The translations under genes and the position numbers were made by a program. From an uncultured virus (IMG/VR IMGVR_UViG_3300022833_000006) (lineage: Duplodnaviria; Heunggongvirae; Uroviricota; Caudoviricetes; Crassvirales): a stretch of 34,750 nucleotides of DNA. Numbering within the stretch: the stretch's first letter is position 1; each line of letters starts with the position of its first letter. A model generated the notes under the pieces. It saw nothing but the letters and a program-made list of their open reading frames with translations, did no database searches and had not been told where the DNA came from. Positions 4,462-29,539 of this stretch are shown here, in pieces. The stretch is from IMG/VR virus record IMGVR_UViG_3300022833_000006. One strand, given 5' to 3'.

Positions 4462-4473
4462 ATTATTTCATTT

Positions 4474-4614: not shown

Positions 4615-4945
4615 TATACCATTTAATAAATTTAATTACTGCTTTATACATTGTTTTAATATCTGTATAAATAAATTTACATATAACTCTATCCAATTGT
4701 TTATTGAAATCCTTATCTTTATCTAGTGTATCTAACCTTTCAATTTTTTGAATTATAGGCATTAACCAATCCCATGATTCATGAAATTTAAAATCATCTA
4801 GTCTAGCTTTATTTGTTTCATACATGTTACTATCTACAGCTAAATAAGGTCTATTGTGAGGAGTAGTATAAACTAATCCTTTTTTTTCCCAACCCATAAA
4901 TTCAGCAATTAACTTATTACCATTTAATACAAAATTCTTTTCCAT
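4592..4945 (-). CDS. Hypothetical phage protein (NKLIAEFMG...SWDWLMP type)
   Basis: ORF track; overlaps neighbours in operon fashion. Confidence 0.75.
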   Translation of the reverse strand: MEKNFVLNGNKLIAEFMGWEKKGLVYTTPHNRPYLAVDSNMYETNKARLDDFKFHESWDWLMPIIQKIERLDTLDKDKDFNKQLDRVICKFIYTDIKTMYKAVIKFIKWYNENNKSN

Positions 4946-5621: not shown

Positions 5622-7128
5622 CTACAGTATTTGTAAAATCATCATAAAATTTATGTTCATTAAGACCTTTAGGGTCATTAATATTCATTTTTTTCATAAC
5701 TTTAACTCTTTCTTTAAAATATTTTATATTATTTTCACAAAGAGAATCTGTAAGTTCTGGGAATTCACTTTTAGTAAGTTTTACTAATGTTTCATATTTA
5801 CTATTTAATTTACTAAAAGATTTTAAAAATTTAGGATTATTAAATTTATCTTCTAATTTGTTAGCTGCCATAACCATTATTGCTGAACTTAACATAAAAT
5901 TGTAAATTTTAAAAAAGTCAAAAGTATTATTATGTTGTCTAAATTCTACAGTTTGTTTGTTAGTAAATATAATAGGAATCATGTTAAACCATACGTAACG
6001 ACTTCTAATGTTCCATTTAGATGTACCATTAGGGTCTTTAGGATGATTTTGTATTTTTTCTAAATCATTACCAAAATCTGAAAATGAATATCCACCAGAT
6101 AAATGCTTAAATAAACTATCAAAAGCTAATTTTTTAAGTTTAGGTAAAGGTTTATCTGTGTCAGACATCATAATACTTAAAGGAGTACAATTCATTGGAC
6201 CACTGTAATTTTTATTTTTACCGTAATCAGTAGAAATTTTTTTAGACAATGGTTGTAAAGAATACATATCTTCTTCTAGCATATTTGCTATATTATTTAT
6301 AGATAAAATATTGTCAACATCTCTTTTAAGACCTCCTAAATGTAAATGTAAAGCACATGTAAAATCATAATCAGTTCTTTTTTTTAATAATTTACATATT
6401 TCCATTACATTATATAAACCTTTTCTACCATCTAAAGGAACTGTAACATATTCTAAACCTGATATACTACCATCTCTTAATGCTACTATACCGTGTTTAT
6501 AACACAATCTATCAGGTAAATAACCTTTTGAAGTTTCAAATTCAAGACCAAAAGTTATTTTATTTTTTTCTAATAAAATACCTAATTCTTCTACCATTTG
6601 ATTTTTAACACTAGGAACTTTGTAATACTGATTATATGATTTTTCAATCATTTTAGTTACAAATCTACTATCGTAGTTTAACGAATTTTTATCTACAGGT
6701 GCTTTTCCTATTTTATTAAAAGAAGATTTTGACATTTCATCTTTTTTATAAAAATTACCTGTATTTAAATGTTCAGAATACTTACTACCTAATGTTTCTT
6801 CATCTATACAATTAGTTACATTAAAATTGTCTACAACAACTTTTATGTTTTTAGTAGGATTAGGTGAAAAAAATCCTAATATAAAAGAATCATCTTTATT
6901 TATACTTACTATACCCCTTGTTAAAAGTTGTTTATTTACTAAAACGTAAGATTTATTTTCATGATCAAATTCAATAAGACCATTATTAAATCTATGATAT
7001 CTACCGTTTACTTTGTAACATCCACCACTTCCTTCTATGTTGTTATCACCTATTTCGTAATAATCATTTTGTATTTTACGACATTTACTTTTTTCTAAAT
7101 TCTTACCTTTGTAAGTTTTAACTATCAT
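5614..7128 (-). CDS. Putative amidoligase (COOH-NH2 ligase fold)
   Basis: TFGLEFET, DGSI..LEYVT.PL, CALHLHLG, RY.WFN, TVEFRQH motifs. Confidence 0.85.
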   Translation of the reverse strand: MIVKTYKGKNLEKSKCRKIQNDYYEIGDNNIEGSGGCYKVNGRYHRFNNGLIEFDHENKSYVLVNKQLLTRGIVSINKDDSFILGFFSPNPTKNIKVVVDNFNVTNCIDEETLGSKYSEHLNTGNFYKKDEMSKSSFNKIGKAPVDKNSLNYDSRFVTKMIEKSYNQYYKVPSVKNQMVEELGILLEKNKITFGLEFETSKGYLPDRLCYKHGIVALRDGSISGLEYVTVPLDGRKGLYNVMEICKLLKKRTDYDFTCALHLHLGGLKRDVDNILSINNIANMLEEDMYSLQPLSKKISTDYGKNKNYSGPMNCTPLSIMMSDTDKPLPKLKKLAFDSLFKHLSGGYSFSDFGNDLEKIQNHPKDPNGTSKWNIRSRYVWFNMIPIIFTNKQTVEFRQHNNTFDFFKIYNFMLSSAIMVMAANKLEDKFNNPKFLKSFSKLNSKYETLVKLTKSEFPELTDSLCENNIKYFKERVKVMKKMNINDPKGLNEHKFYDDFTNTVDE

Positions 7129-7154
7129 TTCATTTTATTTTTTTAATGTTAACT

Positions 7155-9275
7155 CTATTGGTTAAATTTGTTGTTTCTATTAATAAATTCCATTTCATCT
7201 TCATCAAAATATTCATCATCATCATTTTTTATTTCTTTTGAATTTAAAATATTATCAATCCATTTACTTAACGGATTATAAACACCTTCTAAATTTTCGC
7301 AAAAATTAAAAACATTAGTTGCTAATTCATTGTTATCAGAATATTTACTAACAAAATCTATTCCTAAATCTAAAGATTCTTTTATTGAAGTGTTAAAATC
7401 ATCTAATGCAACTTTCATGTCGTCATTTTCGTCTTCAAATTCGTCAACATTTGAATAATCTATACCTGATTCATAATCTTGAAAATCTTCTTCAAATTTA
7501 TTATTTTTATTAACAAGTTTATTTATATTTTTTTCAAAACTTTTGTCTTCAAAATAAGCATTGTCAATAACTTTTTTATTACTTAAAATTATTTTATTAT
7601 TTTTTATACTATTAAAAATATGATTATAAAAACTAGCAACACAAATACCTTTTCTTATACTATAAATATAAGTAGAACCTATTGCTTGTACAGATTCACT
7701 TTGTACTACTTTTCCTTTTCTTAAAATTTTATTTTTAAATAAATGAGCATTAAATTCTAATAAATCTTCTTTTTTATTTTTTAAAAATGAATTTTCATAA
7801 TAAGAAGTTATAGGATAAACACTCATGTGCGAATATTCTTCAAGAGTAAAGTTTTCTGATCCTTTATAATTAATAGTTTCATAATCTAATTCAGTAAGTA
7901 ACATAATACCATTAACTATGTAAAACAAAGTTAAATCAACTTTTCCTAAAACAATATTTTTAGAATTAACTTTATCAAAAAATGAAAAATTATTAATTAA
8001 ATTTTTAGCTTCATGTATTAAATTACTAACATATATAAAACCATTATTTTCACTATAAACATAAATACCATCTTTAACAAGCTCGTTGTTTTGTTTATAT
8101 CTAAAATTTTCAAAAATAACTTTATTATAATTAACCATTTCTTTGCTCCTAATTATTTTCTCATAAAAAATACTTTTTCCAATTTTACTTTCTAAAGGTG
8201 AAATAACATTTTGAATATCATTTGGTATTTTATTTGCACTAATAAATAATTTAGAATTAACAGGTGGTTGTTTTGATTTATAAACAACTAAATTTTTTAC
8301 TGATTTATTGTTATTTTTAGTTTTATCAACATTTTTTCTGTTTTTTTCTTCTTTTTTACGATTAAATTCATACATTGAATCGTATTTTTCATTTTTAGTT
8401 CTATCAATATTAAACAAAGCTTCAATTACACCATTTTTTATTTTATAAAGTATATTTGTTTCAAAAGTATATATATTAGAATCTTTTTCAGTATGTCTTT
8501 TACCTGATATAAGCTCTAAAGGAGCTACTGTAGAAGAATAATATATACTATTTTTAGATTCTTGCCAATAATGCAATGGTCTTTCTTCTTCAGCAACACT
8601 AGTATTATATTCCCATTTTTTAGATTTACCTCTAAATACAAAAACAGTTTCTTTTTCTTTTTGTGAATGTAAAACCAATGCAGCAGCACCTTTGTAATCT
8701 TGTAAAACTTTTATATAATCAGGTTTTTTTACATTAGCTTTAGATATTATTTCTAATAAAATTTCACTATCTACTTTTTCTCTATGTTTATCATCTTTAA
8801 GATTTACTTCATATTTTTCAGCTAAAAATTTGTGATTATCTAAAGTTCCGTTATGAGCACCTATAAAATTAAAACCATCACCAATATCAAACATAAAAGG
8901 ATGTGTATTATTTACACTTTTAATACCTCCTCTTGATGCATTTCTAGTGTGACCTATAATTACGTTACCTACTTTTTTTTTGTACTTTTGGATACTTTCA
9001 TTAATAAATAAATTTCTAAATAAAGCTTCATTGTTTGTACCAATACTGTCACCTTTATGTAATTTTTCATTTATATATAAACCACAAGAATTAGTACCTC
9101 TTTCTTCATTTAAAACACCTAATATTTTAAGTTTATCCATATCAAATGAAGATGGATTTTCACCAGTCCATCCAAATAATCCACAACTAAAAACATCTTT
9201 TTTTTGTGTTTTACTAAAAATGTTTAATAGCATTTGCATAATTAACATTATAATTACTATATTAAATATTAACAT
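7155..9275 (-). CDS. Class II glutamine amidotransferase (Ntn hydrolase) with leader and long C-terminal region
   Basis: CGLFG, RG.NSCG, IGHTRNAS, NTHPF, AHNGTL, VDSE, ERPL motifs. Confidence 0.88.
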   Translation of the reverse strand: MLIFNIVIIMLIMQMLLNIFSKTQKKDVFSCGLFGWTGENPSSFDMDKLKILGVLNEERGTNSCGLYINEKLHKGDSIGTNNEALFRNLFINESIQKYKKKVGNVIIGHTRNASRGGIKSVNNTHPFMFDIGDGFNFIGAHNGTLDNHKFLAEKYEVNLKDDKHREKVDSEILLEIISKANVKKPDYIKVLQDYKGAAALVLHSQKEKETVFVFRGKSKKWEYNTSVAEEERPLHYWQESKNSIYYSSTVAPLELISGKRHTEKDSNIYTFETNILYKIKNGVIEALFNIDRTKNEKYDSMYEFNRKKEEKNRKNVDKTKNNNKSVKNLVVYKSKQPPVNSKLFISANKIPNDIQNVISPLESKIGKSIFYEKIIRSKEMVNYNKVIFENFRYKQNNELVKDGIYVYSENNGFIYVSNLIHEAKNLINNFSFFDKVNSKNIVLGKVDLTLFYIVNGIMLLTELDYETINYKGSENFTLEEYSHMSVYPITSYYENSFLKNKKEDLLEFNAHLFKNKILRKGKVVQSESVQAIGSTYIYSIRKGICVASFYNHIFNSIKNNKIILSNKKVIDNAYFEDKSFEKNINKLVNKNNKFEEDFQDYESGIDYSNVDEFEDENDDMKVALDDFNTSIKESLDLGIDFVSKYSDNNELATNVFNFCENLEGVYNPLSKWIDNILNSKEIKNDDDEYFDEDEMEFINRNNKFNQ

Positions 9276-10089
9276 ATTCTTTTATTTTGTATTTTTCAAT
9301 TAATTCATTTACGTTTTCAATTTCTAAATCTGATTCAGGATTAATATAATTTAATATATCTTTTCTTAAATCTTCATTAGAAATTTCAAGTTCTTCTGCC
9401 ATTTTGACAGCCATAACGGAACGATCCCATACGTTTAATATACTATCATCACTTTTTAAAAAGTAACCACCTAAAGACCTACATTCTATTCCGTAATCTT
9501 TATCTCTACAATCCCCGATTTTACCATATAATGATCTGCGATTATGATCATCATTATCTTCTAATATTAAAGGTAATGATACAGCTAATTCAAACATCAT
9601 ACATAATCTATCTCTTTCATCTTCTGTTGGGTTGTCCCACCCATAATGAATGTGAAAACCAGAAGATCTCATAGTTAATTCTGATGTGTCTTCTTCTGCA
9701 ATATCTGAAGAACATTCAGTTATTGCGTTATAAGAAGGTGAACATCCAAAAACATGAGCTTTAGGATCAAGAAGTAATTCTTCAGTAGCAATTTCACTAC
9801 TTGAATAATGAAGTTCCATACCTAAAGGTGCTACAAACATTTCAATGTAAGATTTAGCATAATTTATTGAATTTAAAAATTCTTCTCTTGTTTTACAAGG
9901 TGGAATATTAAATTCAGCAAGTATATTATCTTCTTGAACAAAACAACCTGTTCCTATATCAAGAGGATCGTTTTTACCTGCATTAAAAACTCCAATAATA
10001 GAAGCTAATTCTTTAGTTTCAAAATCTCTAACAAATACTTCTGGATCAGATCCAATAGTAAGATTATTGTAATTATATTTATTATTCAT
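9262..10089 (-). CDS. phiEco32-like COOH-NH2 ligase type 2
   Basis: TIGSDPEVF, QEDNILAEFNIPP, FGCSPSYNA, RSSGFHIHYG, RRSLYGK.G..R.K.YGIECRSL. Confidence 0.9.
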   Translation of the reverse strand: MNNKYNYNNLTIGSDPEVFVRDFETKELASIIGVFNAGKNDPLDIGTGCFVQEDNILAEFNIPPCKTREEFLNSINYAKSYIEMFVAPLGMELHYSSSEIATEELLLDPKAHVFGCSPSYNAITECSSDIAEEDTSELTMRSSGFHIHYGWDNPTEDERDRLCMMFELAVSLPLILEDNDDHNRRSLYGKIGDCRDKDYGIECRSLGGYFLKSDDSILNVWDRSVMAVKMAEELEISNEDLRKDILNYINPESDLEIENVNELIEKYKIKEYVNI

Positions 10090-10090
10090 A

Positions 10091-10738
10091 TTATAGTAAT
10101 TTGTCTATTAAATTATAACAATAGTTTTTAAATTCTAATGTTGAATGATTAAACTCTGGATGTCCTTGTATAGCAAGGCTATTTGTATTTTTATAATACA
10201 CTATTTCACACTCTTTAAAATTTTTATCTAATAAAATTTCTTGATCATTACCATTAAGATATTTTTCAGATAAAATATCTTGAGAAATTCCTATTATATC
10301 ATAATTATCTTTATTAAGATTAAATGGATACATCATTTGATGATGGGTAGAAGTTACTTCAAAAATATTATTTTCAATATCAACAACATTGTGACTTCTA
10401 CTGTGACCAGTAATATGTTGTATTAATTTACCACCACTCATTACAGTTAAAAACTGTGAACCTCTACATATACCAACTTTTAATACATGAGGAGCTAAAG
10501 AATTAAATGCTTCTTCTTCTAACGTATCTCTTTTAGCGTTAATATAAGTATTAGAACCTAATTGTTCATCATAATAAATAGGGTTAACATCTTCTCCACC
10601 AGTAAATAAAGCAATGCTTATATCTTCTTCAGAAGAATCTTCTGTTATTACAATTTCATATTTATTACTAAAAAATTCTAAATATTGATTAGTAAGATAT
10701 GCATATAATGTAAATATTTTAATTTTTTCTTTTTTCAT
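10091..10738 (-). CDS. Class I glutamine amidotransferase-like / peptidase C26 family
   Basis: FTGGEDVNP..Y, RD..E, GICRGSQ, STHHQMM, QGHPE. Confidence 0.9.
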   Translation of the reverse strand: MKKEKIKIFTLYAYLTNQYLEFFSNKYEIVITEDSSEEDISIALFTGGEDVNPIYYDEQLGSNTYINAKRDTLEEEAFNSLAPHVLKVGICRGSQFLTVMSGGKLIQHITGHSRSHNVVDIENNIFEVTSTHHQMMYPFNLNKDNYDIIGISQDILSEKYLNGNDQEILLDKNFKECEIVYYKNTNSLAIQGHPEFNHSTLEFKNYCYNLIDKLL

Positions 10739-11489
10739 TTTCTATTCTATTTAATAATGTGTTAATAATTCCAATTGCAACAAATGGGTTAAATCTTTCT
10801 TCTGGGTGAGATTGTTCTGCAGCAATAGGTAATTCTTTGTGAATCATAAATTCTATATTTTTATGTTTGACATCATAAGCTAATGGTAAAAAATCATTAG
10901 ATAAATTGTCTATAAAAATAGCTTGATGATGTATAGAATTTGTTTTAAATTTTCGTGGAACATTATTTACATAATTTAATCTATCTTTTTTAGAAGAAAT
11001 AAGTATTTCACCTAAATAATCTTTTGGAAAATTATCAATAACTGTTTCTAAATCATCTACTAATTCACCTCTCCAAGTAGTAGATCTATCATTGTGAACA
11101 TGTTGATTTAAACTTCCACCAAAGTGGACATTTAAATTTTGAAAACCTGCACAAATACCATAAATTGCTGTTTTATTTTGTTTAGCACGTTCAATATACC
11201 CATTAATAGCACCAAGATTTACATCATAAAATGATTCATATTCCATATCAGGATTATCAGTCATATAATGTGGTTTTTGACCATATCGTAAAGGATTAAC
11301 GTCACGTCCACCTGGTAATATTAATAAATCTACTGGTAATATAGTTTCATTTGCAGCATCTATTATAACTACATCTGCATCAAAACTTCTTGCAAAGTGT
11401 ACGTAAGCTGCATTTTGACCATAACCTGGTTGATATTTACCAGTATGATTATGACCTAATATTCCAATTAACGTTTTTGTTTTTGACAT
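10719..11489 (-). CDS. Class I glutamine amidotransferase-like / peptidase C26 family (second copy)
   Basis: LPGGRDVNPLRYG, GICAGFQ.LNV.FGG, NSIHHQA, QSHPE. Confidence 0.9.
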   Translation of the reverse strand: MSKTKTLIGILGHNHTGKYQPGYGQNAAYVHFARSFDADVVIIDAANETILPVDLLILPGGRDVNPLRYGQKPHYMTDNPDMEYESFYDVNLGAINGYIERAKQNKTAIYGICAGFQNLNVHFGGSLNQHVHNDRSTTWRGELVDDLETVIDNFPKDYLGEILISSKKDRLNYVNNVPRKFKTNSIHHQAIFIDNLSNDFLPLAYDVKHKNIEFMIHKELPIAAEQSHPEERFNPFVAIGIINTLLNRIENEKRKN

Positions 11490-11491
11490 TT

Positions 11492-12376
11492 TTATTTATT
11501 TAAAGTTTTATATTTATTTTTAAGCATTACTGGTATATGTTTAATATAAGTTTCTTCTGTTATATCTCCAAATGATGGAGCAGAATTAATTTCTACAATA
11601 ATAAAATCTGGATTTTCATTAATATTACCATTTCTATCTGTAGAACTTTGTATTCTAAGATCAATTGCACCAAAATCTAAACCTGTTGAATTAAGAGCTT
11701 TTACGCATTCATCAATTATAGATTGCCAATTACTAGGCTTATCAAAAGCTTCGTTATTTTCAAGAATCCATACACAATTATCATCATTTCTATACCACTT
11801 ATTTTCTTCAGGAGTATCTCTTTTCATCATTTTACGACAAGTATAAAAACATCCATTTGCATCAACGTGAAGTCTATATTCTCTTGAGTAATTATAATAA
11901 CGTTCAAAAATGCGATTTTCTAAATTGACACCTGAACGTAAATAATTTCTAATTTCATCAATAGTTTTAAGTAAAGTATTACCTTGACCTCTACTACCAT
12001 ATAATGATTTAGCAACTAATGGTAATGGCATATCTTCTAAAGAAACTGTTATTATTTCAGCTTTTGTTTGCAATAAAAAATTATTATTATCATTACTACA
12101 TCTATACCAATCTGCTGATTTAACACTTGGTTGTGCGTTTTGAAAACAATTTTTCATGCGAAGTTTACTACTACTATTACGAATTGCATCAACAGTATTT
12201 AATTCTAATCTATCACCTCCATTTGCAATAGTGTCTTTACATTCAGTACTAGAACCTAATCTTACTACTGAACGAAATGGTAATAATTCAATTGTCTTAT
12301 TATTTCTTCTAAGATTAGTGTGAGAAGGATGCCTACTGTATATTACAGGACGAAATTTTGTATATTTATTTTTCAT
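11492..12376 (-). CDS. ATP-grasp ligase (RimK/YheC-like)
   Basis: PLVAK...GSRGQG, REYRLHV, GLDFGAID, IVEINSAPS. Confidence 0.9.
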   Translation of the reverse strand: MKNKYTKFRPVIYSRHPSHTNLRRNNKTIELLPFRSVVRLGSSTECKDTIANGGDRLELNTVDAIRNSSSKLRMKNCFQNAQPSVKSADWYRCSNDNNNFLLQTKAEIITVSLEDMPLPLVAKSLYGSRGQGNTLLKTIDEIRNYLRSGVNLENRIFERYYNYSREYRLHVDANGCFYTCRKMMKRDTPEENKWYRNDDNCVWILENNEAFDKPSNWQSIIDECVKALNSTGLDFGAIDLRIQSSTDRNGNINENPDFIIVEINSAPSFGDITEETYIKHIPVMLKNKYKTLNK

Positions 12377-12842
12377 TATATTTTTTATAATATTTGTTTA
12401 AATTTTCTAAATTTGCAAATTTGTGTTTAAAACCAGTTTGTTCAATTCTTTCCGCTGAATGCCATGATGTACTACCTATTCTTTTTAAAAAAGGAAAATT
12501 TTCATCTTTATCTGTTGACACACTACTATTAAAAACTATACCTGATACATGAAAACAATACCATAAATTAATAGCTGTTTCTTCACAATCAACTAAACTA
12601 AAAACTATACTTAAATAACGTTTCCAAGTTAAAGATGTATATTCAGTTTTAAGAATACAATAAACTTCATAAATAGTTCTATATTTACTTCTGCGACATT
12701 GAATTTCTGTAAATTTTTTATCGTTATAAGTATTAGGTCTATTTTTTAAAAGATCAATTATATAAGATTTAGCAGATTTTCTTCTTTTAGAACGAGAATA
12801 TATTAATTTAGTTTCTATAATCGGCATAATCTCCAGATTCAA
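12366..12842 (-). CDS. Hypothetical protein
   Basis: ORF track; overlaps both neighbours in the operon. Confidence 0.65.
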   Translation of the reverse strand: MNLEIMPIIETKLIYSRSKRRKSAKSYIIDLLKNRPNTYNDKKFTEIQCRRSKYRTIYEVYCILKTEYTSLTWKRYLSIVFSLVDCEETAINLWYCFHVSGIVFNSSVSTDKDENFPFLKRIGSTSWHSAERIEQTGFKHKFANLENLNKYYKKYNEK

Positions 12843-13194
12843 TTAATGTTTTACCTTCGTTTTCACCAAAGTAAATAGAAGCTTTTACATCTTCTCCTGT
12901 ATCAAGAGTTATTTCAATAGGTGTTCTTTTATACCAAGAACCTTCATGATCTCTAGGATCATAACCTTCTAATCTATCTACTGTAGGTAATTGATCAGGT
13001 GTAACTGAATAAACTTCTACTCTAATTTTACTAACTTGCTCGTTAGGATTAACAAAAGGAATACCATTTGCTGTCAATTTATATTTATTTTTAGTCCATC
13101 CAGCACCAATTAATTTTGAATTACCCAATACTCTGTGATTTCCATAACCAGTTCTTAATGTTCCGTAAACACTAATGTTTATATTTTTACTCAT
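12808..13194 (-). CDS. Gamma-glutamylcyclotransferase (AIG2-like)
   Basis: VYGTLRTGYGNH, EVY.V, DRLEGY, Y.R, SGDY. Confidence 0.92.
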   Translation of the reverse strand: MSKNINISVYGTLRTGYGNHRVLGNSKLIGAGWTKNKYKLTANGIPFVNPNEQVSKIRVEVYSVTPDQLPTVDRLEGYDPRDHEGSWYKRTPIEITLDTGEDVKASIYFGENEGKTLIESGDYADYRN

Positions 13195-17458: not shown

Positions 17459-18589
17459 TTATTCTCTAATTTTGTTAAGCATATTATATACTGATTTTAT
17501 TCCTTTTTCATCATTAGTTAAAGGTAATTCTTTAAAAAAATCAACTGCACCATCAAAATACAAAGGGCAAACAGTGTTACCACCACCATCTCTACATGCT
17601 AAAATTTCTAAAAATCTTATATTGTCTTTGAATTTTTCAATGTTATAGCCGTCTTTTTCAGGATATTTTCTTATACCATGTCTGTAAGGACTAAATAAAC
17701 CTAATGCTAAATCTACATCTCTACTAGTTAACTTATTATCAGCTATATCTACTAAACTAGGTTTTAACCTGTTAGCTTTCATATTATCAAGAGATTCTGA
17801 AGCTGCGGATTGTTGCTGCACAATAACTGGACTATAATTATATCTATTTCTAAGTTGTATAAAATATTTAGAAGAAAGATCTGATATTTCTTGATGTAAA
17901 GTACTACCTTTTTTTGGATATAAAAGAGATATGTGATCAACTATTATAATAACATACTCGTCAGGTCTATCTGCTTTGTAATAATCAAATACTTCATGAT
18001 CTTTAGATTCACCTGTTTTATTATCTTTAAAAGTAACTGTTTTATAATAAGTAGTACCATTAGCCTTAGCGTAATCATCCATATACCTCATTATACCGTA
18101 AGCATGTTTAATGTTGTCTATAAATGTTACAGTTTTATTAAAAAATTCAAAATATTCATTTTGTTTTTCTATTTCTAACAGTATTTCTTCACTAACAGCA
18201 CCACGAGTAGATTGTAATTTAACAGGATCTATTCTTATATTACCTTTTGATGTAGTAAAAAGCCTATTACAAGCAGCCTGTGTCATTTTTTGACGTTCAG
18301 ACATTTCTAATGTAAAATACACTATTTTTAATGTAATAGGACTTTCAGGATTTTGTAACTTTCATTTAATAGGATTATACATATACAAATTATCTGTAAC
18401 TTTTGTTTTACCAACTTTAGTACTAGCTGTAACAAGAGTCATTTTACCTTGTTGTATACCAGGAACCACTTCTTCAAAACGAGGTAGTCCAAAGGGTATA
18501 CAATTTGCTTTTCCAGATATTATATTTTCTCTTCTATTTCATAAATGTTTTTTTAATCTACCATAATTGTCTAATTCTTCTTTTTGCAT
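17459..18589 (-). CDS. dnaB: Replicative DnaB-like helicase; true start 18589, two in-frame TGA=Trp
   Basis: Extension MQKEELDNYGRLKKHL*NRRENIISGKANCIPFGLPRF...TASTKVGKT...NPIK*KLQ supplies Walker A; YFTLEMS, IIVDHISLL, VQQQ follow. TGA at 18541-18539 and 18364-18362. Confidence 0.92.
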
Positions 18590-20358: not shown

Positions 20359-20946
20359 TTATTTTAATTCTGTTGTCCAATCTGAATTTTCTGGTTCTTT
20401 TTTAGATTGCTCTACCCATATTTCCAAATTAGAAGTTTCTTCTCCTTTGTAATTCTGTTTGTATATAAAATAATCTGCTCTTTGTATGAATTTAAAATTA
20501 CCATTGAAATTTTCAATATACATTTCAGTTGCATTTATTAATTCATCAAAAGTTACGTCTGGATTTGAATCCATAAACCTTTGTAATTTTTTTCTAGTAG
20601 AAAGACCTGAACCCATTGAACCAACTTTTATATCTTTAAATAAAGATCTATATGTTTTTAATTGATTATCTAATTCTTCTTCTTTTCTACTATCTTCTTT
20701 TATTTTGACAAATACTTTAATAACTTTCTTACCTTTATCTCTAAGATACAATCCTTTTGAATCAGATATTAAATACTGTTTTTCAATAAGGTCATTAATG
20801 TAAGCTTTGTTCATGTCATAATCAAAATAAATTTTATTTGAGCTTAAATATATTTTTATAATACACATTAATTGATTAATATTTATATCAAGTAACTTAA
20901 TGTCTTTAAAATTAAATGATAAATTTTCTATATCTCATAATTTCAT
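20359..20946 (-). CDS. Hypothetical replication-module protein (possible initiator/loader); probable start 20946 with TGA=Trp at codon 4
   Basis: In-frame extension MKL*DIENLSFNFKDIKLLDININQL to the track ORF; TGA at 20937-20935. Function inferred from position only. Confidence 0.65.
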
Positions 20947-21627: not shown

Positions 21628-23556
21628 TTAATTTTTAATTACGTTAATAATTTTATTAACTTCTCTTAAATAATAGTTATAATCTATATTATAATTATCA
21701 TTGTTGTAATACTGATTAAAAACTGTTGTTTTATAACCAGCTTCAATACTTGATTCTCTATCACCCATATCTATCTCACCAAATATGTTTATTTGTAATG
21801 TAGGTATTTTATCAGGCAATGGTGGTAACTTTTTAACAAGCATTTCACCATCGTTAGAAACGAAATATCTAGTTACCTTACCTAATTCATGATCTTCTGG
21901 CTCATAGTCTTTTACAATCCTTTCAACGAGTTTATTATCACCTGTCATCTTTACACCTAAGCAAAAATCGTGAATACCGTAGTTTTCACAAAAAGTATAA
22001 TTCTCTGATGTTGAATGATTTGACAAATGATTATAAATAGTATCTTCAGGACTAACATTGTTTGCAAAATAATTAGCTAAAGCAATAGCTACAATTCTTT
22101 TACTATGATTTTTGTTATAATCCCTATCCATTTCAAAAGCACCTTTGTATTTAGTATAACCTGTATCAGTAATACTCATGTAATTATTAACATCTCGTAT
22201 TATCATTTTGTCATAAACAGCATATTCCATTACAAGATTAGTTTTATTTTCCCAGGATGTAACTATCTTTTTCATGTAATCTACATCAGTTCTCTTTATA
22301 ATAAAAGTAAAACCGTCAGTGTTTGATTGCAAAAATGTAATATCATTAACATGTTTAAATATTTTCTCCATAAGCATAGCTAAAAGTAATTGACCATTAA
22401 GAGTAATACTTAACAGACATTTGGGATCATACAAAAAACTATACATATCATTCATTTTACCAAATGAACCATTGAGCATTAATTTACAAGCTGCATTACG
22501 TGGATCTGATTTAGGAAATGTCTTTCTTAATTCATATATACTTTTATAAATTTTACTAAAAGCTTCTCCTAAGTGTTTTGGTCTAAATTCATTGTTAATA
22601 GCTAAGTTAGGATAGTAACTTGCTACGTCAATGTCTATGATTACATGAGTTTTATCACTTACATACACTCCAGGTTTAGTACAACCATGTATACCACCTT
22701 GACCAAAATCATTAATAATGTTACCTATCTTACCACTAAATTTAAATTCACCTTTAGTATCTTTTGATACATATGATTTAAAATTAAAAAGAACTTTTTG
22801 CATTTCTTTTGAATCAAACTTAATATAGTCAAGTATTATATCATTAAATATAACTGATTTTCTATAAGTTCTTTTCTCTGATAATTCTTTCTTTTTAATA
22901 TTCATTTCTTTAGATAATAAATCTAAGAATATTTCACTACCAATTTTAGGGTCATTAGCATTTATTAAATTTAAACCATATTCCTCAGATAACTGAAGCC
23001 TTAGCTCAATTTCTTTTTGACATTTGTTATAAAATAAATGTGTAGCATTTACATCATGGTCACAATAAGATATTATTTCAGACATCATGTCTTTTGTAAG
23101 ATCACTGTCTGGTGGATAAGGAAGATCACGTATATTATCCATTCTCATGGCATATTCAAGCCATTTAAGAGACGTTCTACGTGCTTTGTTATCGTAATGT
23201 TTAATCCTAAAAAGATCTACTTGAGATATCTTAACTTGATTATCCCATATTGCAGAATAATCAGCTTGTATTACATTTTGTGCTTCATTGTATATCTCTT
23301 CAGATGTTCATTTTCTTTTAACTTTAAGTATAGTGTTATGTAAGACTGGGTAGTCAAAATTAACATTATTATAACCTATTAAAGTCATGTTTCTTTGATT
23401 AAGAAACTCGTAAAGTTTTACTATGTCTGTTTTGTATTTGTTAATTTCAAATCTTCAAAACTCATTAGTTTCTATATTCTTAAACACAGCAAGAAATAAA
23501 TCTTTATATGTTTCTAAATCGTATATGTAAGTTTTGTTACTTCATTGTTTTTTCAT
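21628..23556 (-). CDS. polB: Family B DNA polymerase; true start 23556 (642 aa), three in-frame TGA=Trp
   Basis: Extension holds Exo I YDLET and Exo II GYNNVNFD; then YCDHDV, DVASYYPN, KLMLNGSFGK, NTDG. TGA at 23544-23542, 23457-23455 and 23310-23308. Confidence 0.95.
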
Positions 23557-23594
23557 ATTTTTTATTTTTATAAAGTCTAACAAAAAGTTCGTGA

Positions 23595-25081: not shown

Positions 25082-25233
25082 ATATTCATACTGGATTTGA
25101 ACCAGTGTCTTCTTGTGATTCACTATTATCTATAATAAATTAAATCTAGCAACTTTAAATAAAAAAGTTCCTTATAGTAATCATTGGTAGCGTTATTTGA
25201 TACAAGTACTCTACCTGACTGAGCTAATGAATA
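25082..25233 (-). tRNA. tRNA-like RNA with an 85-nt insert replacing the anticodon loop; identity undetermined
   Basis: Acceptor TATTCAT/ATGAATA, D arm GCTC-AGTCAGGTA-GAGT, anticodon stem CTTGT/ACAAG, variable loop AAGAC, T arm ACTGG-TTCAAAT-CCAGT, all canonically spaced. Confidence 0.75.
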
Positions 25234-25411
25234 TTTATTTTATTTTTTATTTAGATAAAAGCTCACATAATATATGCAAGCCTTATCAATTGCAATGTAC
25301 TACACTTTTGATACATAACCTTTCCCAAATCTATAAAAGTGTTAAAAACTTTGGATGATGTTATATTTGCCAGATATCCTGCTGGCGCAGCTTTTTAGAC
25401 GGCGAAGTCTG

Positions 25412-25855
25412 TGGAGCTGAGGGGAGTCGAACCCCTGTCCCAACAATTTGATTATTAATAAATTATACAGTTTTTCAATTTATAGTTTTCTTCTACACTA
25501 GTTACTCATACTAAATTAACTTATCATACAGCTTCACTATACTAATGTACTTCGGGTCTATCTGGACATACCAGAATATCAAGCATCCTGTGATAAGTTA
25601 CTACATAATGGTTACTACGATGCTTTTTTCACCATTGGCATTATGCTGCCATTGCTAACTTAACTGTTGCAACTGGTGCAACTAGATCGTCAGATCCGTT
25701 AAGAATGTTGTGAACAACACTCATGTTAGCTACTTCCTGTGCAGTTTCCTGCGTACTCATTGTATTTCCGTTTAGAAATTTCACCTACGATATTTAAAGT
25801 GATCACTCACTACTGTTTATTAATATTTACACTGCGGTCAAAACCAGTCAGCCCC
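25412..25855 (-). ncRNA. ssrA: tmRNA
   Basis: 5' GGGGCTGACTGGTTTTGAC, 3' GGACAGGGGTTCGACTCCCCTCAGCTCCA; acceptor with G3-U70 and discriminator A; internal tag frame ending LAMAA*. Confidence 0.95.
25641..25769 (-). other. tmRNA tag reading frame, 42 aa
   Basis: TAAAC|GGA resume context; GNTMSTQETAQEVANMSVVHNILNGSDDLVAPVATVKLAMAA-TAA. Confidence 0.75.
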
Positions 25856-25862
25856 GTTAATG

Positions 25863-26663
25863 TTAATATTTTGTTAATCTATCTTTTACTAACTCTATTA
25901 AACCTTTACTATTTTTAGATAAATTATTAGAAGCACTTGTGTAAAAATTACTAACATCATTAATAGATAAACATTTTTTATTTAATAATATAAATTCATC
26001 AGCTTTTTCTTTATTTGAAAAATAAATGCAATACTTATTTACAGGTTTTTCTCTGTAAAAATCTTTTTTTCTACTTTCAGCTATTTCTTTATTAGGCACA
26101 AGTAAATCCCATGTATTATAAAATTCATCACCTTCAAAGACATCAACACCATCTTCTGTTGTAAATAAAGGTTTTTTAATATGTTTAATATAATTTATTT
26201 CCATATCTCCACAAGCTATTCTATTTCCTTCAGAAATATGAAAAGTTTTAATAGTAAAAGATACACTATTATTAAAAATTACTTCATCACCAACAGTAAA
26301 CACTTCACCATCATTTAATCTTTTTACTGAATGTATATAATACATTTCTGTTCTTTCTAACATTGTAAAAGTAGATTGAGGTGTAGTGTCTATACCATTT
26401 CTTTGCCACCCACCTTTATTACCTATAATCCATAAATCATCAATTAAAGATTTTTGTTTAAAAGACAATATTTCATAATCTTTTTCAATTATTTCTTCCC
26501 AATATTCAGAATAATTTTCTATAATATTAGTATCAATAATAAAACCTTTTGTAAAATAACAATTTTTAGGACAAAAAAAATGATTATTGTCAGTAATTTT
26601 TTCAATAATAGTATTTATATCAGGGCTACCAGAATATTCTTTAATTAATTTGTATTTTTTCAT
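25863..26663 (-). CDS. Hypothetical phage protein
   Basis: ORF track; MKKYKLIKEY, IHSVKRL.DGEVFTVGD, PLFTTEDGVDVFEGD. Confidence 0.8.
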   Translation of the reverse strand: MKKYKLIKEYSGSPDINTIIEKITDNNHFFCPKNCYFTKGFIIDTNIIENYSEYWEEIIEKDYEILSFKQKSLIDDLWIIGNKGGWQRNGIDTTPQSTFTMLERTEMYYIHSVKRLNDGEVFTVGDEVIFNNSVSFTIKTFHISEGNRIACGDMEINYIKHIKKPLFTTEDGVDVFEGDEFYNTWDLLVPNKEIAESRKKDFYREKPVNKYCIYFSNKEKADEFILLNKKCLSINDVSNFYTSASNNLSKNSKGLIELVKDRLTKY

Positions 26664-26665: not shown

Positions 26666-27052
26666 TTATAATATTATACTATTAAATAATTCTACTGTCC
26701 AATATACATCAAAACAAAGATAACTAAGTAAGAAAGCTGCTAAAATAAAAGTGTGATACCATACTCTATCTTCATATGGAGTATGAGAATATTCTCTATA
26801 TTGACCTTTTCTTTCTTTAATACCTATTATTAATCTTTCAAAATTATAAAGCATTAATAAACTTAAACTTACGTTGTATATAAGCTTAGTAAGCGTTACG
26901 TTTGCTAGTAATATATTTTTATCTAATGTATGTCCAGTTAATTGTGCTAAGTTGTTAAAGAGCTCTATTAACAATATACTAATAGGTAATCTAAATGGTA
27001 CTAATAATAAAAATGATATTATTAATATTATTAATTTTTGTTTGTGTTTCAT
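26666..27052 (-). CDS. Hypothetical membrane protein
   Basis: About three hydrophobic segments. Confidence 0.7.
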   Translation of the reverse strand: MKHKQKLIILIISFLLLVPFRLPISILLIELFNNLAQLTGHTLDKNILLANVTLTKLIYNVSLSLLMLYNFERLIIGIKERKGQYREYSHTPYEDRVWYHTFILAAFLLSYLCFDVYWTVELFNSIIL

Positions 27053-27259
27053 TGTATTTTATTTAAATTGATTATATTATTTAAAAATATACTGTTATAT
27101 TATTTAACAGTATACTATATTATTATAAGATATATTAATCTCTATTGCTACACGCAAAAATAATAAATCCTAATATTACTATGAACCAATAAGCTTCCAT
27201 GTTGTTGTGTTTTAATTGTTTATGTTTATATAATATATTATATTATATTTTCATTTATG

Positions 27260-27896: not shown

Positions 27897-27947
27897 ATTT
27901 ACACTCTGCATTTACAGGCTTGTGACTGTCTTTGGCTGCATTAAAAT
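27897..27947 (-). ncRNA. Twister self-cleaving ribozyme (type P1)
   Basis: ATTT-TAA-TGCA-GC-CAAAG-ACAG-TCACAAGC-CTGT-AAA-TGCA-GA-GTG-T-AAAT: P1, P2, P4, pseudoknots CAC/GTG and GC/GC, conserved UAA and GA. Confidence 0.88.
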
Positions 27948-28900: not shown

Positions 28901-29539
28901 TTACAAATTTTCTTTAATCCAATCTTTAAATTGAATTATTTTATAATCTTCATCATATCTATCATTATTAATAGATGTAATTCCTGAATTACGACCTTCT
29001 GACCAACATTTTTGCATCTCTTCTTTAGTATACATTTTTTCTTCAATCAAATGTACTATTACTTCATTGTTAGTTGTTAGTTTTATTAACAACGGTCTTG
29101 TAGTTTTATGTTTGCTATATAGTCCATCTACATATTCATACTCCAATTCAACTTCATCAATACCACCTTGTTTACAATATTCTTCTAAAAATGATTGTGG
29201 TATTTGTGGCAACGAAACTATTATTTTTTGACCTATTATTTTAGTAGATTTTTTACATTTTACTTTAAGCTTAGTATCTGTTGTTGCTACGATTTTTATA
29301 GCACCTTGTCCTTTTTCTAAATTAATATTTTTAAATGGTTTATCAGGATATTTTTCATTTATACACCAATCACCTTTTTTAATATTTTCATTTGATATTA
29401 AATATAAATGTTGAGAAGTTACATCCCACCATTTTTTCATATTTAAATTATTATTAATTAAAAAATCATCATCTTTTAAAAATAAAGCAGGTGTTAAATC
29501 TTCTGTTGATAACATTACCACTTTTATTGTATTTTCCAT
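28901..29539 (-). CDS. Hypothetical phage protein
   Basis: QHLYLIS.E.IK.GDW, KIVATTD..L, LPQIPQSF.EEY. Confidence 0.8.
   Translation of the reverse strand: MENTIKVVMLSTEDLTPALFLKDDDFLINNNLNMKKWWDVTSQHLYLISNENIKKGDWCINEKYPDKPFKNINLEKGQGAIKIVATTDTKLKVKCKKSTKIIGQKIIVSLPQIPQSFLEEYCKQGGIDEVELEYEYVDGLYSKHKTTRPLLIKLTTNNEVIVHLIEEKMYTKEEMQKCWSEGRNSGITSINNDRYDEDYKIIQFKDWIKENL

What the first reader, a model, noticed from the sequence alone, without database searches (positions are those of the whole stretch)
25412..25855. Phage tmRNA with an unusually long 42-aa tag
Seen: intact alanyl-tRNA-like domain and a tag frame GNTMSTQETAQEVANMSVVHNILNGSDDLVAPVATVKLAMAA. Known: bacterial tags are usually about 10 aa; Bacteroidota tags typically resume at Gly and end in an ALAA-like degron. 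Both ends are kept here with roughly 30 extra residues between them. Inference: the insert may redirect tagged proteins, bind an adaptor or protease, or be translated from its internal ATGs. The tmRNA could also clear ribosomes stalled at recoded TGA codons or on ribozyme-cleaved mRNA. No smpB is present in the window.
Basis: partly seen in the sequence, partly recalled or inferred. Interest (0 to 1): 0.8.

Follow-up and report, generated by a model that had tools for sequence, protein, structure and literature searches.

The report
Phage tmRNA with conserved 42-residue tag
This uncultured marine phage carries its own ribosome-rescue RNA (tmRNA), whose peptide tag is about four times the length of two related bacterial tags and contains a helix shared by many related phages, so it probably does more than mark unfinished proteins for destruction.

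Summary
A complete one-piece tmRNA lies on the minus strand at 25412-25855 (ARAGORN; Rfam RF00023, 58.1 bits against a cut-off of 47). ARAGORN's 9-residue tag (ATVKLAMAA) is a mis-call. It starts at a GGA in the same UAAAY|G/D-N context as two bacterial tmRNAs.

It belongs to a family found almost only in viral contigs. A scan keyed on nucleotides upstream of the tag returned 80 loci. All 80 had an open 24-49 codon frame and 79 carried an "ANM" core. Conserved residues use several synonymous codons. pN/pS is 0.59 in frame and 1.11 and 1.14 in the shifted frames. Length changes keep the frame. Among 185,579 bacterial and archaeal species genomes, only one 4.9-kb contig in a metagenome bin carries this type.

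Cultured carriers are the Cellulophaga phages phi14:2, phi38:1, phi40:1 and Calle.

The tag has a start like the bacterial tags, a conserved amphipathic helix, a variable linker and a C-terminal xAA end. What reads the helix is unknown. I found no phage SmpB, ClpP, Lon or SspB.

My searches found no paper describing the long tag. Earlier notes of this scan report the same family on other DNA. It is a new variant of a known kind.

The parts
25412..25855 (-). One-piece tmRNA gene, running from the 5' G at 25855 to the discriminator A at 25412. CCA is not encoded; the following bases are CAG.
   Evidence: ARAGORN; Rfam RF00023 at 58.1 bits; sequence read; ends located.
25849..25855 (-). 5' strand of the acceptor stem, GGGGCUG. 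G3 pairs with U, the alanine identity pair.
   Evidence: In the family alignment the G3:U pair is kept in 25 of 25 sequences, and pairs 4-7 show compensatory changes.
25413..25436 (-). T-arm (AGGGG-UUCGACU-CCCCU, 25436-25420) followed by the 3' acceptor strand CAGCUCC (25419-25413).
   Evidence: All five T-stem pairs show compensatory changes, in 1 to 16 of 25 sequences each.
25798..25811 (-). Hairpin AGUG-AGUGAU-CACU at the position of the first stem of pseudoknot 1.
   Evidence: Read. The matching hairpin in relatives shows compensatory changes at each of its four pairs, in 1 to 5 of 25 sequences. In that alignment the window's own row sits two columns out of register, so its four pairs are read by eye. 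A second pseudoknot stem was not established.
25770..25774 (-). UAAAC context immediately upstream of the resume codon.
   Evidence: The same UAAAY (or UAAUU) context precedes a G or D codon in the relatives. Two bacterial tmRNAs have similar contexts, UUAACU|GGC and AUAAAU|GAC. The Rfam alignment places the consensus resume codon on this GGA.
25644..25769 (-). Tag reading frame of 42 codons, GGA to GCA: GNTMSTQETAQEVANMSVVHNILNGSDDLVAPVATVKLAMAA.
   Evidence: Translation; family comparison.
25695..25739 (-). Codons for the conserved helix core, Q11 to G25 (QEVANMSVVHNILNG).
   Evidence: Q, A, N, M and V are invariant or nearly so, with synonymous codon variation. The AlphaFold2 model has a helix over residues 4-24; residues 11-20 average pLDDT 82.
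25641..25643 (-). TAA stop codon of the tag.
25636..25651 (-). Hairpin UGGCA-GCAUAA-UGCCA with the stop codon in its loop, the position of helix 5 in standard tmRNAs.
   Evidence: Read. phi14:2 has UGGU...ACCA at the same place. This is my reading by eye; RNAalifold did not report it.

Best explanation
This is a working phage-encoded one-piece tmRNA. It lies in the replication-gene region of the window, beside the DNA polymerase gene. In phi14:2 that whole gene module is transcribed early.

It would be charged with alanine by the host, since the G3:U pair and discriminator A are kept. It would be carried by host SmpB and EF-Tu into ribosomes stalled on broken or stop-less mRNAs. Translation then resumes at GGA (25769) and runs through 42 codons to the TAA.

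The tag has four parts. The first is a start like the bacterial tags (GN). The second is a conserved amphipathic helix (consensus Q-[IV]-x-A-N-M-x-x-V-[HF]-[NS]-[IL]-[LI]). The third is a variable linker. The fourth is a C-terminal hydrophobic-Ala-Ala end like the ALAA end that ClpX and ClpA recognise in studied bacteria.

My most likely mechanism is as follows. The phage supplies extra rescue capacity while host mRNA and translation are being disrupted. It replaces the host's 9-residue mark with a two-part mark. The AA end still feeds a host AAA+ protease. The helix is a second docking site for a reader not yet identified: an adaptor, an accessory domain of a protease, or another factor. This resembles how the SspB-binding part of the E. 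coli tag works.

Shown: the identity of the gene, the position of the resume codon by homology, selection on the peptide, and restriction of the family to phage sequences. Inferred: actual trans-translation, degradation of tagged chains, and the docking role of the helix.

My odds: about 0.9 that the 42-residue frame is the translated tag, and about 0.35 that the helix is a docking site for a protease or adaptor. The confidence figure given for this explanation, 0.6, is for the whole statement taken loosely: a real tmRNA, the long tag translated, and the helix having some selected function after or during tagging.
For: Identity:
- ARAGORN and Rfam (58.1 bits, full-length match) both call a tmRNA.
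- In 25 full-length relatives, RNAalifold predicts 36 pairs, 28 of them with compensatory changes. G3:U is kept in 25 of 25, and no structure is predicted across the tag.
- In 36 of the 50 motif-bearing loci where my simple finder located both ends, all 36 keep G3:U and a discriminator A.

Resume codon:
- The Rfam alignment puts the consensus resume codon on this GGA.
- The context UAAAY|G/D-N lies 10-13 nt after the conserved GGUGA in all 80 loci.
- It resembles the context in two bacterial tmRNAs, whose tags are GNEEFALAA and DNTSYALAA.
- ARAGORN's start points fall at non-homologous positions in relatives.

Translation of the tag:
- The set was retrieved only by nucleotides upstream of the tag (at least 120 stretches, 80 fetched).
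- All 80 have an open 24-49 codon frame and 79 carry ANM.
- Among 62 distinct sequences: Q 62 of 62 (CAA/CAG), A 61 of 62 (4 codons), N 61 of 62 (2 codons), V 62 of 62 (3 codons). The two L/I columns use at least 6 codons each. The last residue is A in 61 of 62 (4 codons).
- pN/pS is 0.59 in frame and 1.11 and 1.14 in the shifted frames.
- There are 8 different lengths before ANM and 13 after it, all in frame. 54 of 59 distinct peptides end in xAA.
- The hairpin that the window's VVHNIL codons could form is lost in relatives that use GTA/CAT codons (my reading). So the conservation is on the peptide.

Phage restriction: detailed in the full report.

Retention: the tmRNA is the only tRNA-like gene ARAGORN finds in phi14:2 and in the nearest record G001.

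Expression in a relative: the phi14:2 preprint reports two intergenic RNAs between g004 and g006. They are transcribed rightward, more strongly than most genes, from the earliest time point, and they do not decline (passages). The tmRNA (4031-4500, plus strand) lies between g004 (2194-2904) and g006 (4602-4901).

Helix: the AlphaFold2 model has a helix over residues 4-24.

Background: the Himeno review describes ClpXP, ClpAP, Lon, FtsH and Tsp degrading tagged chains and SspB binding the tag (passages).
Against: - There is no direct evidence of expression, charging or tagging for this phage. The one public RNA run found held only a 189-nt contig over part of the phi14:2 gene.
- The link to the published phi14:2 RNAs rests on g005 coordinates that I could not see.
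- The Rfam score is modest. The phi14:2 tmRNA did not reach the Rfam cut-off at all (0 matches).
- ARAGORN called a tmRNA in only 23 of 48 related loci.
- Only one stem of pseudoknot 1 is supported, and the 3' pseudoknots were not resolved.
- No reader of the helix was found. There is no phage SmpB, ClpP, SspB or Lon_C in 5 records. No protein neighbour is conserved across the five genomes. The one shared candidate family was rejected.
- pN/pS of 0.59 is only moderate over the whole tag, because the flanks and linker are variable.
- The host of this phage is unknown. Its in-frame TGA codons raise questions about translation that I did not resolve.
Confidence: 0.6

Rival explanations
1. The long tag is translated, but the helix is not a degradation signal. 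It might act inside the ribosome exit tunnel or on the rescue cycle itself. It might make tagged chains jam or occupy host proteases as decoys. Or it might send rescued chains to another fate, such as membrane binding, aggregation or protection.
For: Conserved residues cover more than one face of the predicted helix. By my helical-wheel reading of the columns, the hydrophobic positions -4, 0, +3, +4 and +7 relative to the Met fall within an arc of about 100 degrees, and the invariant Q and N flank it. No adaptor-like or protease gene was found in the phages. One 105-kb contig has two tmRNAs with the same helix but different C-terminal halves.
Against: The C-terminal xAA end is strongly kept: 54 of 59 distinct peptides. 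This fits continued delivery to an AAA+ protease. Nothing observed points specifically to tunnel arrest, decoy action or membrane binding.
Confidence: 0.2
2. The real resume codon lies near the 3' end, as ARAGORN reports (ATVKLAMAA). The tag is then of normal length and the upstream open frame is an accident.
For: ARAGORN output for the window and its closest relatives.
Against: ARAGORN's start points are not homologous between relatives: ATV..., GSSV..., ENAQ..., ANMQ.... The upstream codons show amino-acid conservation with synonymous variation. The frame stays open in all 80 loci, with many in-frame length changes. The GGA sits in the same upstream context as the resume codons of two bacterial tmRNAs.
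Confidence: 0.04
3. The conserved frame is a small independent gene translated from the invariant internal ATG by normal initiation, and not by trans-translation.
For: The Met codon is invariant in 62 of 62 sequences. Bacteroidota are said to initiate without strong Shine-Dalgarno sequences (recalled, not checked here).
Against: Residues upstream of the ATG (Q, I/V, A, N) are conserved as amino acids with synonymous codon changes. So is the G/D-N/K start next to the conserved resume context. The frame lies inside a structurally complete tmRNA.
Confidence: 0.03
4. The tmRNA exists mainly to cope with this phage's TGA-to-Trp recoding or with ribozyme-cut transcripts. It would rescue ribosomes held at in-frame TGA codons or at cleaved 3' ends.
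For: The window reads TGA as a sense codon. Under code 4 the DNA polymerase ORF grows to 651 aa with 3 in-frame TGAs and scores 521 bits against 415. RNR, DnaB-like and RusA-like ORFs also extend. One TGA aligns with a Trp in the phi14:2 polymerase. A twister-P1-like match lies at 27898-27947 (43.6 bits, below the cut-off of 67.2).
Against: The same tmRNA family is in phi14:2 and Calle, whose deposited protein annotations give no sign of recoding; I did not test their code. A ribosome at a stop codon on intact mRNA is a poor tmRNA substrate (established knowledge, recalled). The twister match is below its cut-off.
Confidence: 0.05
5. The gene is a passive passenger: a captured host ssrA, or an integration-site remnant, with no role in infection.
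For: Phages are known to pick up ssrA fragments at integration sites. The Buchholz and Panino papers raise this idea (passages).
Against: The gene is complete. Its scaffold shows compensatory changes. It is the only tRNA-like gene kept in two of the genomes. The tag shows purifying selection. No bacterial genome scanned carries this type apart from one 4.9-kb contig.
Confidence: 0.02

Closest known systems
Chromosomal one-piece tmRNA (SsrA, Rfam RF00023) of Bacteroidota
   Same: Both have a tRNA-like domain with G3:U, a long connecting helix, a resume codon for G or D in a UAAAY-type context followed by N, a tag ending in hydrophobic-Ala-Ala, and a stop codon in a hairpin loop.
   Different: The two bacterial tags seen here have 9 residues (GNEEFALAA, DNTSYALAA); the phage tag has 42. 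About 30 extra residues include a conserved helix found only in viral sequences. The nucleotide pattern around pseudoknot 1 is absent from 185,579 species genomes except for one 4.9-kb contig.
E. coli ssrA tag with the SspB adaptor (two-part tag: adaptor site plus ClpX site)
   Same: The proposed logic is the same: an upstream part of the tag serves as a docking site, and the C-terminal xAA end goes to the unfoldase (Himeno review, passages).
   Different: There is no SspB gene in 5 phage records, and the SspB model did not match the Bacteroides thetaiotaomicron control genome. The phage element is a helix of about 15-20 residues, not a short extended peptide. Binding is not shown.
Mycoplasma 27-residue ssrA tag, read by Lon instead of ClpXP
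   Same: It is an unusually long tag whose extra length is thought to carry recognition signals for a different protease (Burgos et al. 2021, introduction and discussion passages citing Gur and Sauer 2008).
   Different: The Mycoplasma tag ends in AFA and belongs to a cell that lacks ClpXP. The phage tags keep the xAA end, are longer (24-50 residues), are carried by viruses, and no protease has been tested.
Other phage-encoded tmRNAs (mycobacteriophage Bxz1 group, Bacillus phage G, two-piece tmRNAs of marine myophages such as Melnitz)
   Same: These are complete ssrA genes carried by lytic phages. [quoted passage not shown] 2014, passages; Buchholz et al. 2022, passages).
   Different: Those papers do not describe a conserved extended tag. 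This family is one-piece, resembles Bacteroidota tmRNAs, and is defined by the ANM helix.
tmRNAs of the Cellulophaga phages phi14:2, phi38:1, phi40:1 and Calle_1-3
   Same: They belong to the same family. phi14:2 aligns over the 5' 277 nt at 69% identity and has a 38-residue tag with the same core. Calle, phi38:1 and phi40:1 have a 30-residue tag with ANMEAVNAIL.
   Different: The window's tag is longer (42 residues) and its phage reads TGA as Trp. In GenBank only Calle is annotated as having a tmRNA. The others carry hypothetical-protein or removed features over the gene. Bartlau et al. 2021 only count the gene (passages).

Membership tests
tmRNA (SsrA, Rfam RF00023) | Covariance-model score above the curated cut-off over the full model | tested here: met
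   58.1 bits against a cut-off of 47, model positions 1-374, E 1.9e-20. The relative phi14:2 did not reach the cut-off.
tmRNA (SsrA, Rfam RF00023) | tRNA-like domain: 7-bp acceptor stem with G3:U70, discriminator A and a T-arm | tested here: met
   GGGGCUG/CAGCUCC, discriminator A, T-loop UUCGACU. G3:U is kept in 25 of 25 relatives, with compensatory changes in the stems.
tmRNA (SsrA, Rfam RF00023) | Internal reading frame with no start codon, beginning a fixed short distance after pseudoknot 1 and ending at a stop codon | tested here: met
   The GGA lies 11 nt after GGUGA in a UAAAC context, as in two bacterial tmRNAs. TAA lies in a hairpin loop.
tmRNA (SsrA, Rfam RF00023) | Tag ending in a hydrophobic residue followed by Ala-Ala | tested here: met
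   The window's tag ends in ...LAMAA. 54 of 59 distinct family peptides end in xAA.
tmRNA (SsrA, Rfam RF00023) | Pseudoknot 1 upstream of the resume codon and further pseudoknots downstream | tested here: inconclusive
   One hairpin at the position of the first pseudoknot-1 stem shows compensatory changes. The second stem and the 3' pseudoknots were not resolved.
tmRNA (SsrA, Rfam RF00023) | Short tag (11 and 14 residues in E. coli and B. subtilis; 27 in Mycoplasma pneumoniae is called unusually long) | tested here: not met
   The window's tag has 42 residues; the family range is 24-50. This is a typical feature and not a defining one, so membership stands.
tmRNA (SsrA, Rfam RF00023) | Works with SmpB; charged with alanine; adds the tag by trans-translation | not testable with these tools
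   No SmpB was found in 5 phage records, so a host SmpB would be needed. Activity needs experiments.
SspB-type two-part degradation tag | A known adaptor (SspB) that binds the upstream part of the tag | tested here: not met
   The SspB model PF04386 matched 0 of 5 phage records, and among the control genomes it matched only E. coli and Caulobacter. The resemblance is in logic only.
Mycoplasma-type long tag read by Lon | Tag ending in AFA, in a host lacking ClpXP | tested here: not met
   The tag ends in MAA. The host is unknown. The CLP_protease model did match the Bacteroides thetaiotaomicron control genome.

The most novel reading that the evidence does not exclude
These phages use trans-translation as a delivery system. 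Every chain rescued during infection receives a phage-specified helical handle, read by a dedicated but still unknown factor. In this way the phage, and not the host, decides the fate of unfinished proteins. Possible purposes are fast recycling of amino acids from host fragments, shutting off host quality control, or neutralising host defences that cut mRNA or tRNA and flood the cell with stalled ribosomes. The family would then be the first example of a virus redesigning the content of the ssrA tag for its own purpose.
Probability: 0.3. Interest if true: 0.85.

Novelty: new variant of a known kind. Interest (0 to 1): 0.68.

Why it matters
tmRNA tags are usually described as short, nearly interchangeable degradation marks. 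Here a large, phage-restricted family has tripled to quintupled the tag and holds a helix in it under selection as a peptide. That implies a function for tag content that is not part of the current picture of trans-translation.

The family includes cultured phage-host pairs (phi14:2, phi38:1, phi40:1 and Calle on Cellulophaga), so the question can be tested directly.

It also probably names one of the two abundant "non-coding RNAs of unknown function" reported for the crAss-like model phage phi14:2.

On the practical side, standard tools mis-handle these genes. ARAGORN truncates the tag or misses the gene, Rfam can fall below its cut-off, and GenBank records carry hypothetical proteins over them.

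Tried and rejected
1. Public RNA evidence. One search found a single marine-sediment RNA run holding 0.05 of the sampled words. Laying it gave one 189-nt contig over L023 785-875. It says nothing either way.

2. Self-association of the tag (two copies, complex prediction). The result was "no answer", score 0.01. It says nothing either way.

3. A phage-encoded reader found by gene neighbourhood. BLASTP all-against-all of ORFs from five tmRNA-bearing records plus the window found no protein neighbour of the tmRNA shared by all. The phi14:2 g004-like protein (window 28901-29539) is shared by the window, phi14:2 and Calle, with a weak N-terminal match in G009. However, only 10 of 53 related viral loci have any tmRNA signal within the fetched flanks of up to 10 kb, and 5 of those have the ANM type. 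I rejected it. The 266-aa ORF just upstream of the tmRNA (25863-26663) has a homologue only in phi14:2.

4. Phage-encoded SmpB, ClpP, SspB and Lon_C: 0 of 5 records each.

5. Origin of the helix in a protein. The tag profile gave 0 hits against PDB sequences and 0 against Pfam. A search of longer proteins gave one hit, a fish complement factor H. Its only aligned segment is 11 residues (PHNILNGGIDS) inside a protein carrying Sushi domains, at hhalign probability 19%. I judged it chance.

6. A bacterial source. Two scans of species genomes found only one 4.9-kb MAG contig of this type, plus one unrelated VVHNILNG match.

7. Promoters and terminators. Sigma-70-like sites are no more frequent than in shuffled sequence (16 against 16.9), and there is no minus-strand terminator after the gene. 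Promoters of Bacteroidota and of phage polymerases are not covered by that scan.

8. Similarity between phi14:2's other intergenic regions (1279-2193 and 2905-3589) and the window: only short low-scoring matches, best E 6e-4 over 39 nt.

9. The published version of the phi14:2 paper and the preprint's supplementary tables, which would give the g005 coordinates, were not available.
Full report
**What is there**

ARAGORN finds a single tRNA-like gene in the 34,750-bp window: a tmRNA at 25411-25855 on the minus strand. Rfam's tmRNA model matches 25409-25855 over its whole length at 58.1 bits against a cut-off of 47 (E 1.9e-20).

The sequence shows the following features.
- The acceptor stem is GGGGCUG/CAGCUCC, with the G3:U pair that marks alanine acceptors.
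- The discriminator is A.
- The T-loop is UUCGACU.
- There is no encoded CCA.

ARAGORN reports the tag as ATVKLAMAA. The same frame is open much further upstream. Translated from GGA at 25769, it gives GNTMSTQETAQEVANMSVVHNILNGSDDLVAPVATVKLAMAA and then TAA. The stop codon sits in the loop of a small hairpin, UGGCA-GCAUAA-UGCCA (read by eye).

**Which resume codon is right**

Three lines of evidence favour the GGA.
- The Rfam alignment places the consensus resume codon on it.
- It lies 11 nt after a conserved GGUGA, in the context UAAAC|GGA AAU. Two bacterial chromosomal tmRNAs fetched here have similar contexts and first codons. Chryseobacterium has UUAACU|GGC AAC with the tag GNEEFALAA. A Crocinitomicaceae genome has AUAAAU|GAC AAU with the tag DNTSYALAA.
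- ARAGORN's start points in relatives fall at non-homologous positions: GSSVQ..., ENAQV..., ANMQV..., APKME.... They are therefore heuristic picks.

**Relatives**

BLASTN against cultured phages found only Cellulophaga phage phi14:2, a crAss-like phage (Crassvirales, Steigviridae). The match covers the 5' 277 nt at 69% identity.
- ARAGORN calls a tmRNA there. Rfam does not reach its cut-off.
- GenBank annotates hypothetical proteins over it.
- Its frame from the same UAAAC|GGA is 38 residues long: GNDTDNTQLKANMTVVHNILNGSDALIGSSVQKLAMVA.

Scans of IMG/VR with short nucleotide patterns and with a peptide pattern (123 stretches matched, 48 confirmed) brought in many more relatives. In that set there are 37 distinct tags of 30-50 residues.

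That set was selected on the motif itself, so I made an unbiased one. I scanned for a nucleotide pattern that lies entirely upstream of the tag, ATAACTG-N(1-5)-AACTAAGGTGA.
- All 80 have an open frame of 24-49 codons, starting at a G or D codon 10-13 nt after GGTGA.
- 79 of the 80 contain ANM.
- The exception, L093, has a 49-residue tag without ANM.

The two sets together give 87 distinct tag peptides of 24-50 residues, with a median of 37.

**Is the long frame translated**

Among the 62 distinct nucleotide sequences of the unbiased set:

| Column | Residue count | Codons used |
|---|---|---|
| Q | 62 of 62 | CAA, CAG |
| A | 61 of 62 | GCT, GCA, GCC, GCG |
| N | 61 of 62 | AAC 36, AAT 25 |
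| M | 62 of 62 | ATG |
| V | 62 of 62 | GTA, GTT, GTG |
| Two L/I columns | - | at least six codons each |
| Last residue A | 61 of 62 | four codons |

- Pooled pairwise pN/pS is 0.59 in frame and 1.11 and 1.14 in the two shifted frames. In the motif-selected set the values are 0.52 against 1.09 and 1.44.
- The number of residues before ANM takes 8 different values. The number after it takes 13. Even so, 54 of 59 distinct peptides end in xAA. So length changes have kept the frame.
- The small hairpin that the window's GUGUUG-UUCA-CAACAU could form is not kept in relatives that use GTA GTA CAT (my reading of the sequences). The conservation is therefore on the peptide, not on RNA structure.
- Residues just upstream of the invariant Met are also conserved as amino acids. 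This argues against a separate small gene starting at that ATG.

**Is the RNA scaffold intact**

I aligned 25 full-length family members, including the window. RNAalifold predicts 36 pairs, 28 of them with compensatory changes. These cover:
- the acceptor stem (G3:U in 25 of 25);
- the T-arm;
- the long connecting helix;
- a closing CAGC/GCUG helix;
- a hairpin at the place of the first stem of pseudoknot 1.

No structure is predicted across the tag. In the window that hairpin reads AGUG-AGUGAU-CACU (25811-25798). I read those pairs by eye, because the alignment places the window's row two columns out of register there.

I could not establish a second pseudoknot-1 stem or the 3' pseudoknots. 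A simple end-finder located both acceptor strands and a T-arm in 36 of the 50 motif-bearing loci. All 36 keep G3:U and a discriminator A.

**Restriction to phage sequences**

- The upstream nucleotide pattern matches 22 places in one genome each of 185,579 bacterial and archaeal species.
- Only one of those encodes this kind of tag. It lies on a 4.9-kb contig in a Flavobacteriales metagenome bin. ARAGORN calls no tmRNA at any of the 22, and the other 21 show no tag-like frame.
- A peptide-pattern scan matched 42 stretches, of which one was confirmed. That one lacks ANM, and ARAGORN calls no tmRNA there.
- These are exact-pattern scans, so divergent bacterial versions could have been missed.

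Cultured carriers are phi14:2 and Calle_1-3, phi38:1 and phi40:1, all of which infect Cellulophaga. Only the Calle records annotate the gene as a tmRNA.

**Context in the window**

The window is the replication and nucleotide-metabolism part of a phage. It encodes RNR subunits, an exonuclease, a primase, a Sak4-like protein, thymidylate synthase and a DNA polymerase. The DNA polymerase is closest to that of phi14:2, at 46% identity.

The nearest held viral record is G001 (66.7 kb, estimated 66% complete). It shares 84% of the window's sampled words and has the same tmRNA.

The phage reads TGA as a sense codon.
- Under code 4 the polymerase ORF grows from 506 to 651 aa with three in-frame TGAs. 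Its PHROG score rises from 415 to 521 bits.
- RNR, DnaB-like and RusA-like ORFs also extend.
- The stretch read through the TGAs is 59% identical to the phi14:2 polymerase, and one TGA aligns with a Trp there.

Its relative phi14:2 carries the same kind of tmRNA, and its deposited protein annotation gives no sign of recoding. I did not test its code. The tmRNA therefore does not look like a special adaptation to recoding.

ARAGORN finds the tmRNA as the only tRNA-like gene in phi14:2 and in G001. It finds the tmRNA plus one tRNA-Met in G008 and G009. The gene is thus kept even where almost no tRNA genes are.

**Expression**

I have no data for this phage. For phi14:2, the Drobysheva et al. 2020 preprint (passages read) makes two relevant statements.
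- The early gene class includes the whole replicative module and is transcribed rightward.
[quoted passage not shown] In the RefSeq record g004 is 2194-2904 and g006 is 4602-4901. The tmRNA lies at 4031-4500 on the plus strand, between them. So it is very probably one of these RNAs. I could not see the coordinates of g005, because the preprint's supplements are closed and the journal version is not held. This link is therefore an inference.

**How it probably works**

No SmpB gene is present in the five phage records searched, so the RNA must use the host's SmpB, AlaRS and EF-Tu.

The tag keeps a start like the bacterial tags (GN, GK, DK or DN in 86 of 87 peptides). It also keeps a hydrophobic-Ala-Ala end. 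In studied bacteria that end is what ClpX and ClpA recognise (Himeno review, passages).

Between the two ends lies the conserved core. AlphaFold2, given an 11-sequence alignment, models residues 4-24 as a helix. Mean pLDDT is 82 over residues 11-20 and 65.8 overall.

On a helical wheel (my calculation from the columns), the conserved hydrophobic positions fall on one face. The invariant Q and N lie beside them.

The arrangement of an upstream recognition element plus a C-terminal protease signal resembles the E. coli tag, where SspB binds the upstream part. It also recalls the 27-residue Mycoplasma tag, thought to have evolved for recognition by Lon (passages).

My best reading is that the helix is a second docking site that changes the speed or route of removal of rescued chains. 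This is an inference, and I put it at about 0.35.
- There is no ClpP, SspB or Lon_C gene in the five phage records.
- No protein neighbour of the tmRNA is conserved.
- The one candidate family was rejected.
- The tag profile has no relatives in PDB sequences or Pfam.

**What is known in print**

- Hudson et al. 2014 list phage ssrA only in mycobacteriophages and Bacillus phage G (passages).
- Buchholz et al. 2022 count tmRNAs in 402 of 18,146 phage genomes. They offer general ideas about function (passages).
- Bartlau et al. 2021 note one tmRNA in phage Calle (passages).
- The Panino paper discusses a phage tmRNA as an integration-related gene (passages).
- Eight full-text searches found no paper that describes a long, conserved tag in flavobacterial or crAss-like phage tmRNAs. 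Subscription journals are mostly outside that library.

**Earlier notes of this scan**

Earlier notes report the same family on other DNA: e1-5977050, e1-6048745, e1-6053632 and e1-5342295. I reached my reading before looking at them, and my own tests agree with them.

**Verdict**

The long-tag reading is right. The window is one member of a large, phage-restricted tmRNA family, and the function of the conserved helix is open. It is a new variant of a known kind and can be tested in existing Cellulophaga phage systems.

Noticed in passing
window 3-599, 653-1627, 2163-2738, 4084-4461, 17459-18589, 20359-20946, 21628-23583 (all minus strand): This phage reads TGA as a sense codon, most likely Trp. 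Under code 4 these ORFs extend, and most of those I tested gain matches to DNA polymerase, RNR subunits, a DnaB-like helicase and a RusA-like resolvase. One TGA aligns with a Trp in the phi14:2 polymerase. ARAGORN found no suppressor tRNA in the window or in the nearest record G001, which is 66% complete. The recoded genes are replication genes, the module that is transcribed early in phi14:2, and not late genes.
   Followed up: partly
window about 25085-25232 (minus strand), about 180 nt downstream of the tmRNA: A tRNA-like gene is split by an insert of about 85 nt in or after the anticodon loop. It has a clean acceptor stem, D-arm, T-arm and a 5-bp anticodon stem whose two strands lie about 90 nt apart. 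The apparent anticodon is CAA, but the variable loop is short. Neither ARAGORN nor Rfam (E up to 1) calls it. The whole element folds with a z-score of -2.75. Its 5' half is found only in the closest relatives: 4 of 236 loci.
   Followed up: partly
window 27898-27947 (minus strand): There is a match to the twister-P1 ribozyme model at 43.6 bits, below the cut-off of 67.2 (E 2.9e-7). It lies in a stretch of about 1.1 kb without ORFs of 80 aa or more, upstream of the tmRNA.
   Followed up: no
window 5614-13194 (minus strand): A run of genes matches amidoligase, glutamine amidotransferase (three ORFs), COOH-NH2 ligase, RimK-like ribosomal protein S6 glutaminyl transferase and gamma-glutamyl cyclotransferase families. 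It looks like a cassette for peptide or amino-acid ligation and modification, sitting inside the replication module.
   Followed up: no
L016 and L018 (both on the 105,181-bp contig IMGVR_UViG_3300025853_000041): One phage contig carries two tmRNA genes of this family. They have nearly the same N-terminal half and helix but different C-terminal halves...NDFQGVSQDTMGGQVLIAA and ...ASKHLNDVVTGELQMAA.
   Followed up: partly
L001 / L237 (phi14:2, record 4031-4500): The phi14:2 tmRNA is not annotated. GenBank has hypothetical CDSs over it, and RefSeq removed them and left the region empty. It very probably corresponds to one of the two abundant early RNAs of unknown function reported in the phi14:2 preprint. 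The other such region, between g004 and the tmRNA, remains unexplained. The 2905-3589 part of it has no significant similarity to the window.
   Followed up: partly
KC821614.1 / NC_021796.1 (phi38:1) and KC821612.1 (phi40:1), record 26806-27164: These two well-studied Cellulophaga podophages carry the same tmRNA as phage Calle (99.4% identity). It is annotated there as a hypothetical protein.
   Followed up: no
L093; L240, L257, L263: Other viral tmRNAs have long or unusual tags without the ANM core. L093 has a 49-residue tag, GNIDNDAQEVVDINYTF...QVAIAA. ARAGORN also reports the tags GKVINMFGQPQLRAVA, DTKVVSIAPQPVRLAA and GKSNMISFGFAAPRVYAMAS near g004-like genes.
   Followed up: no
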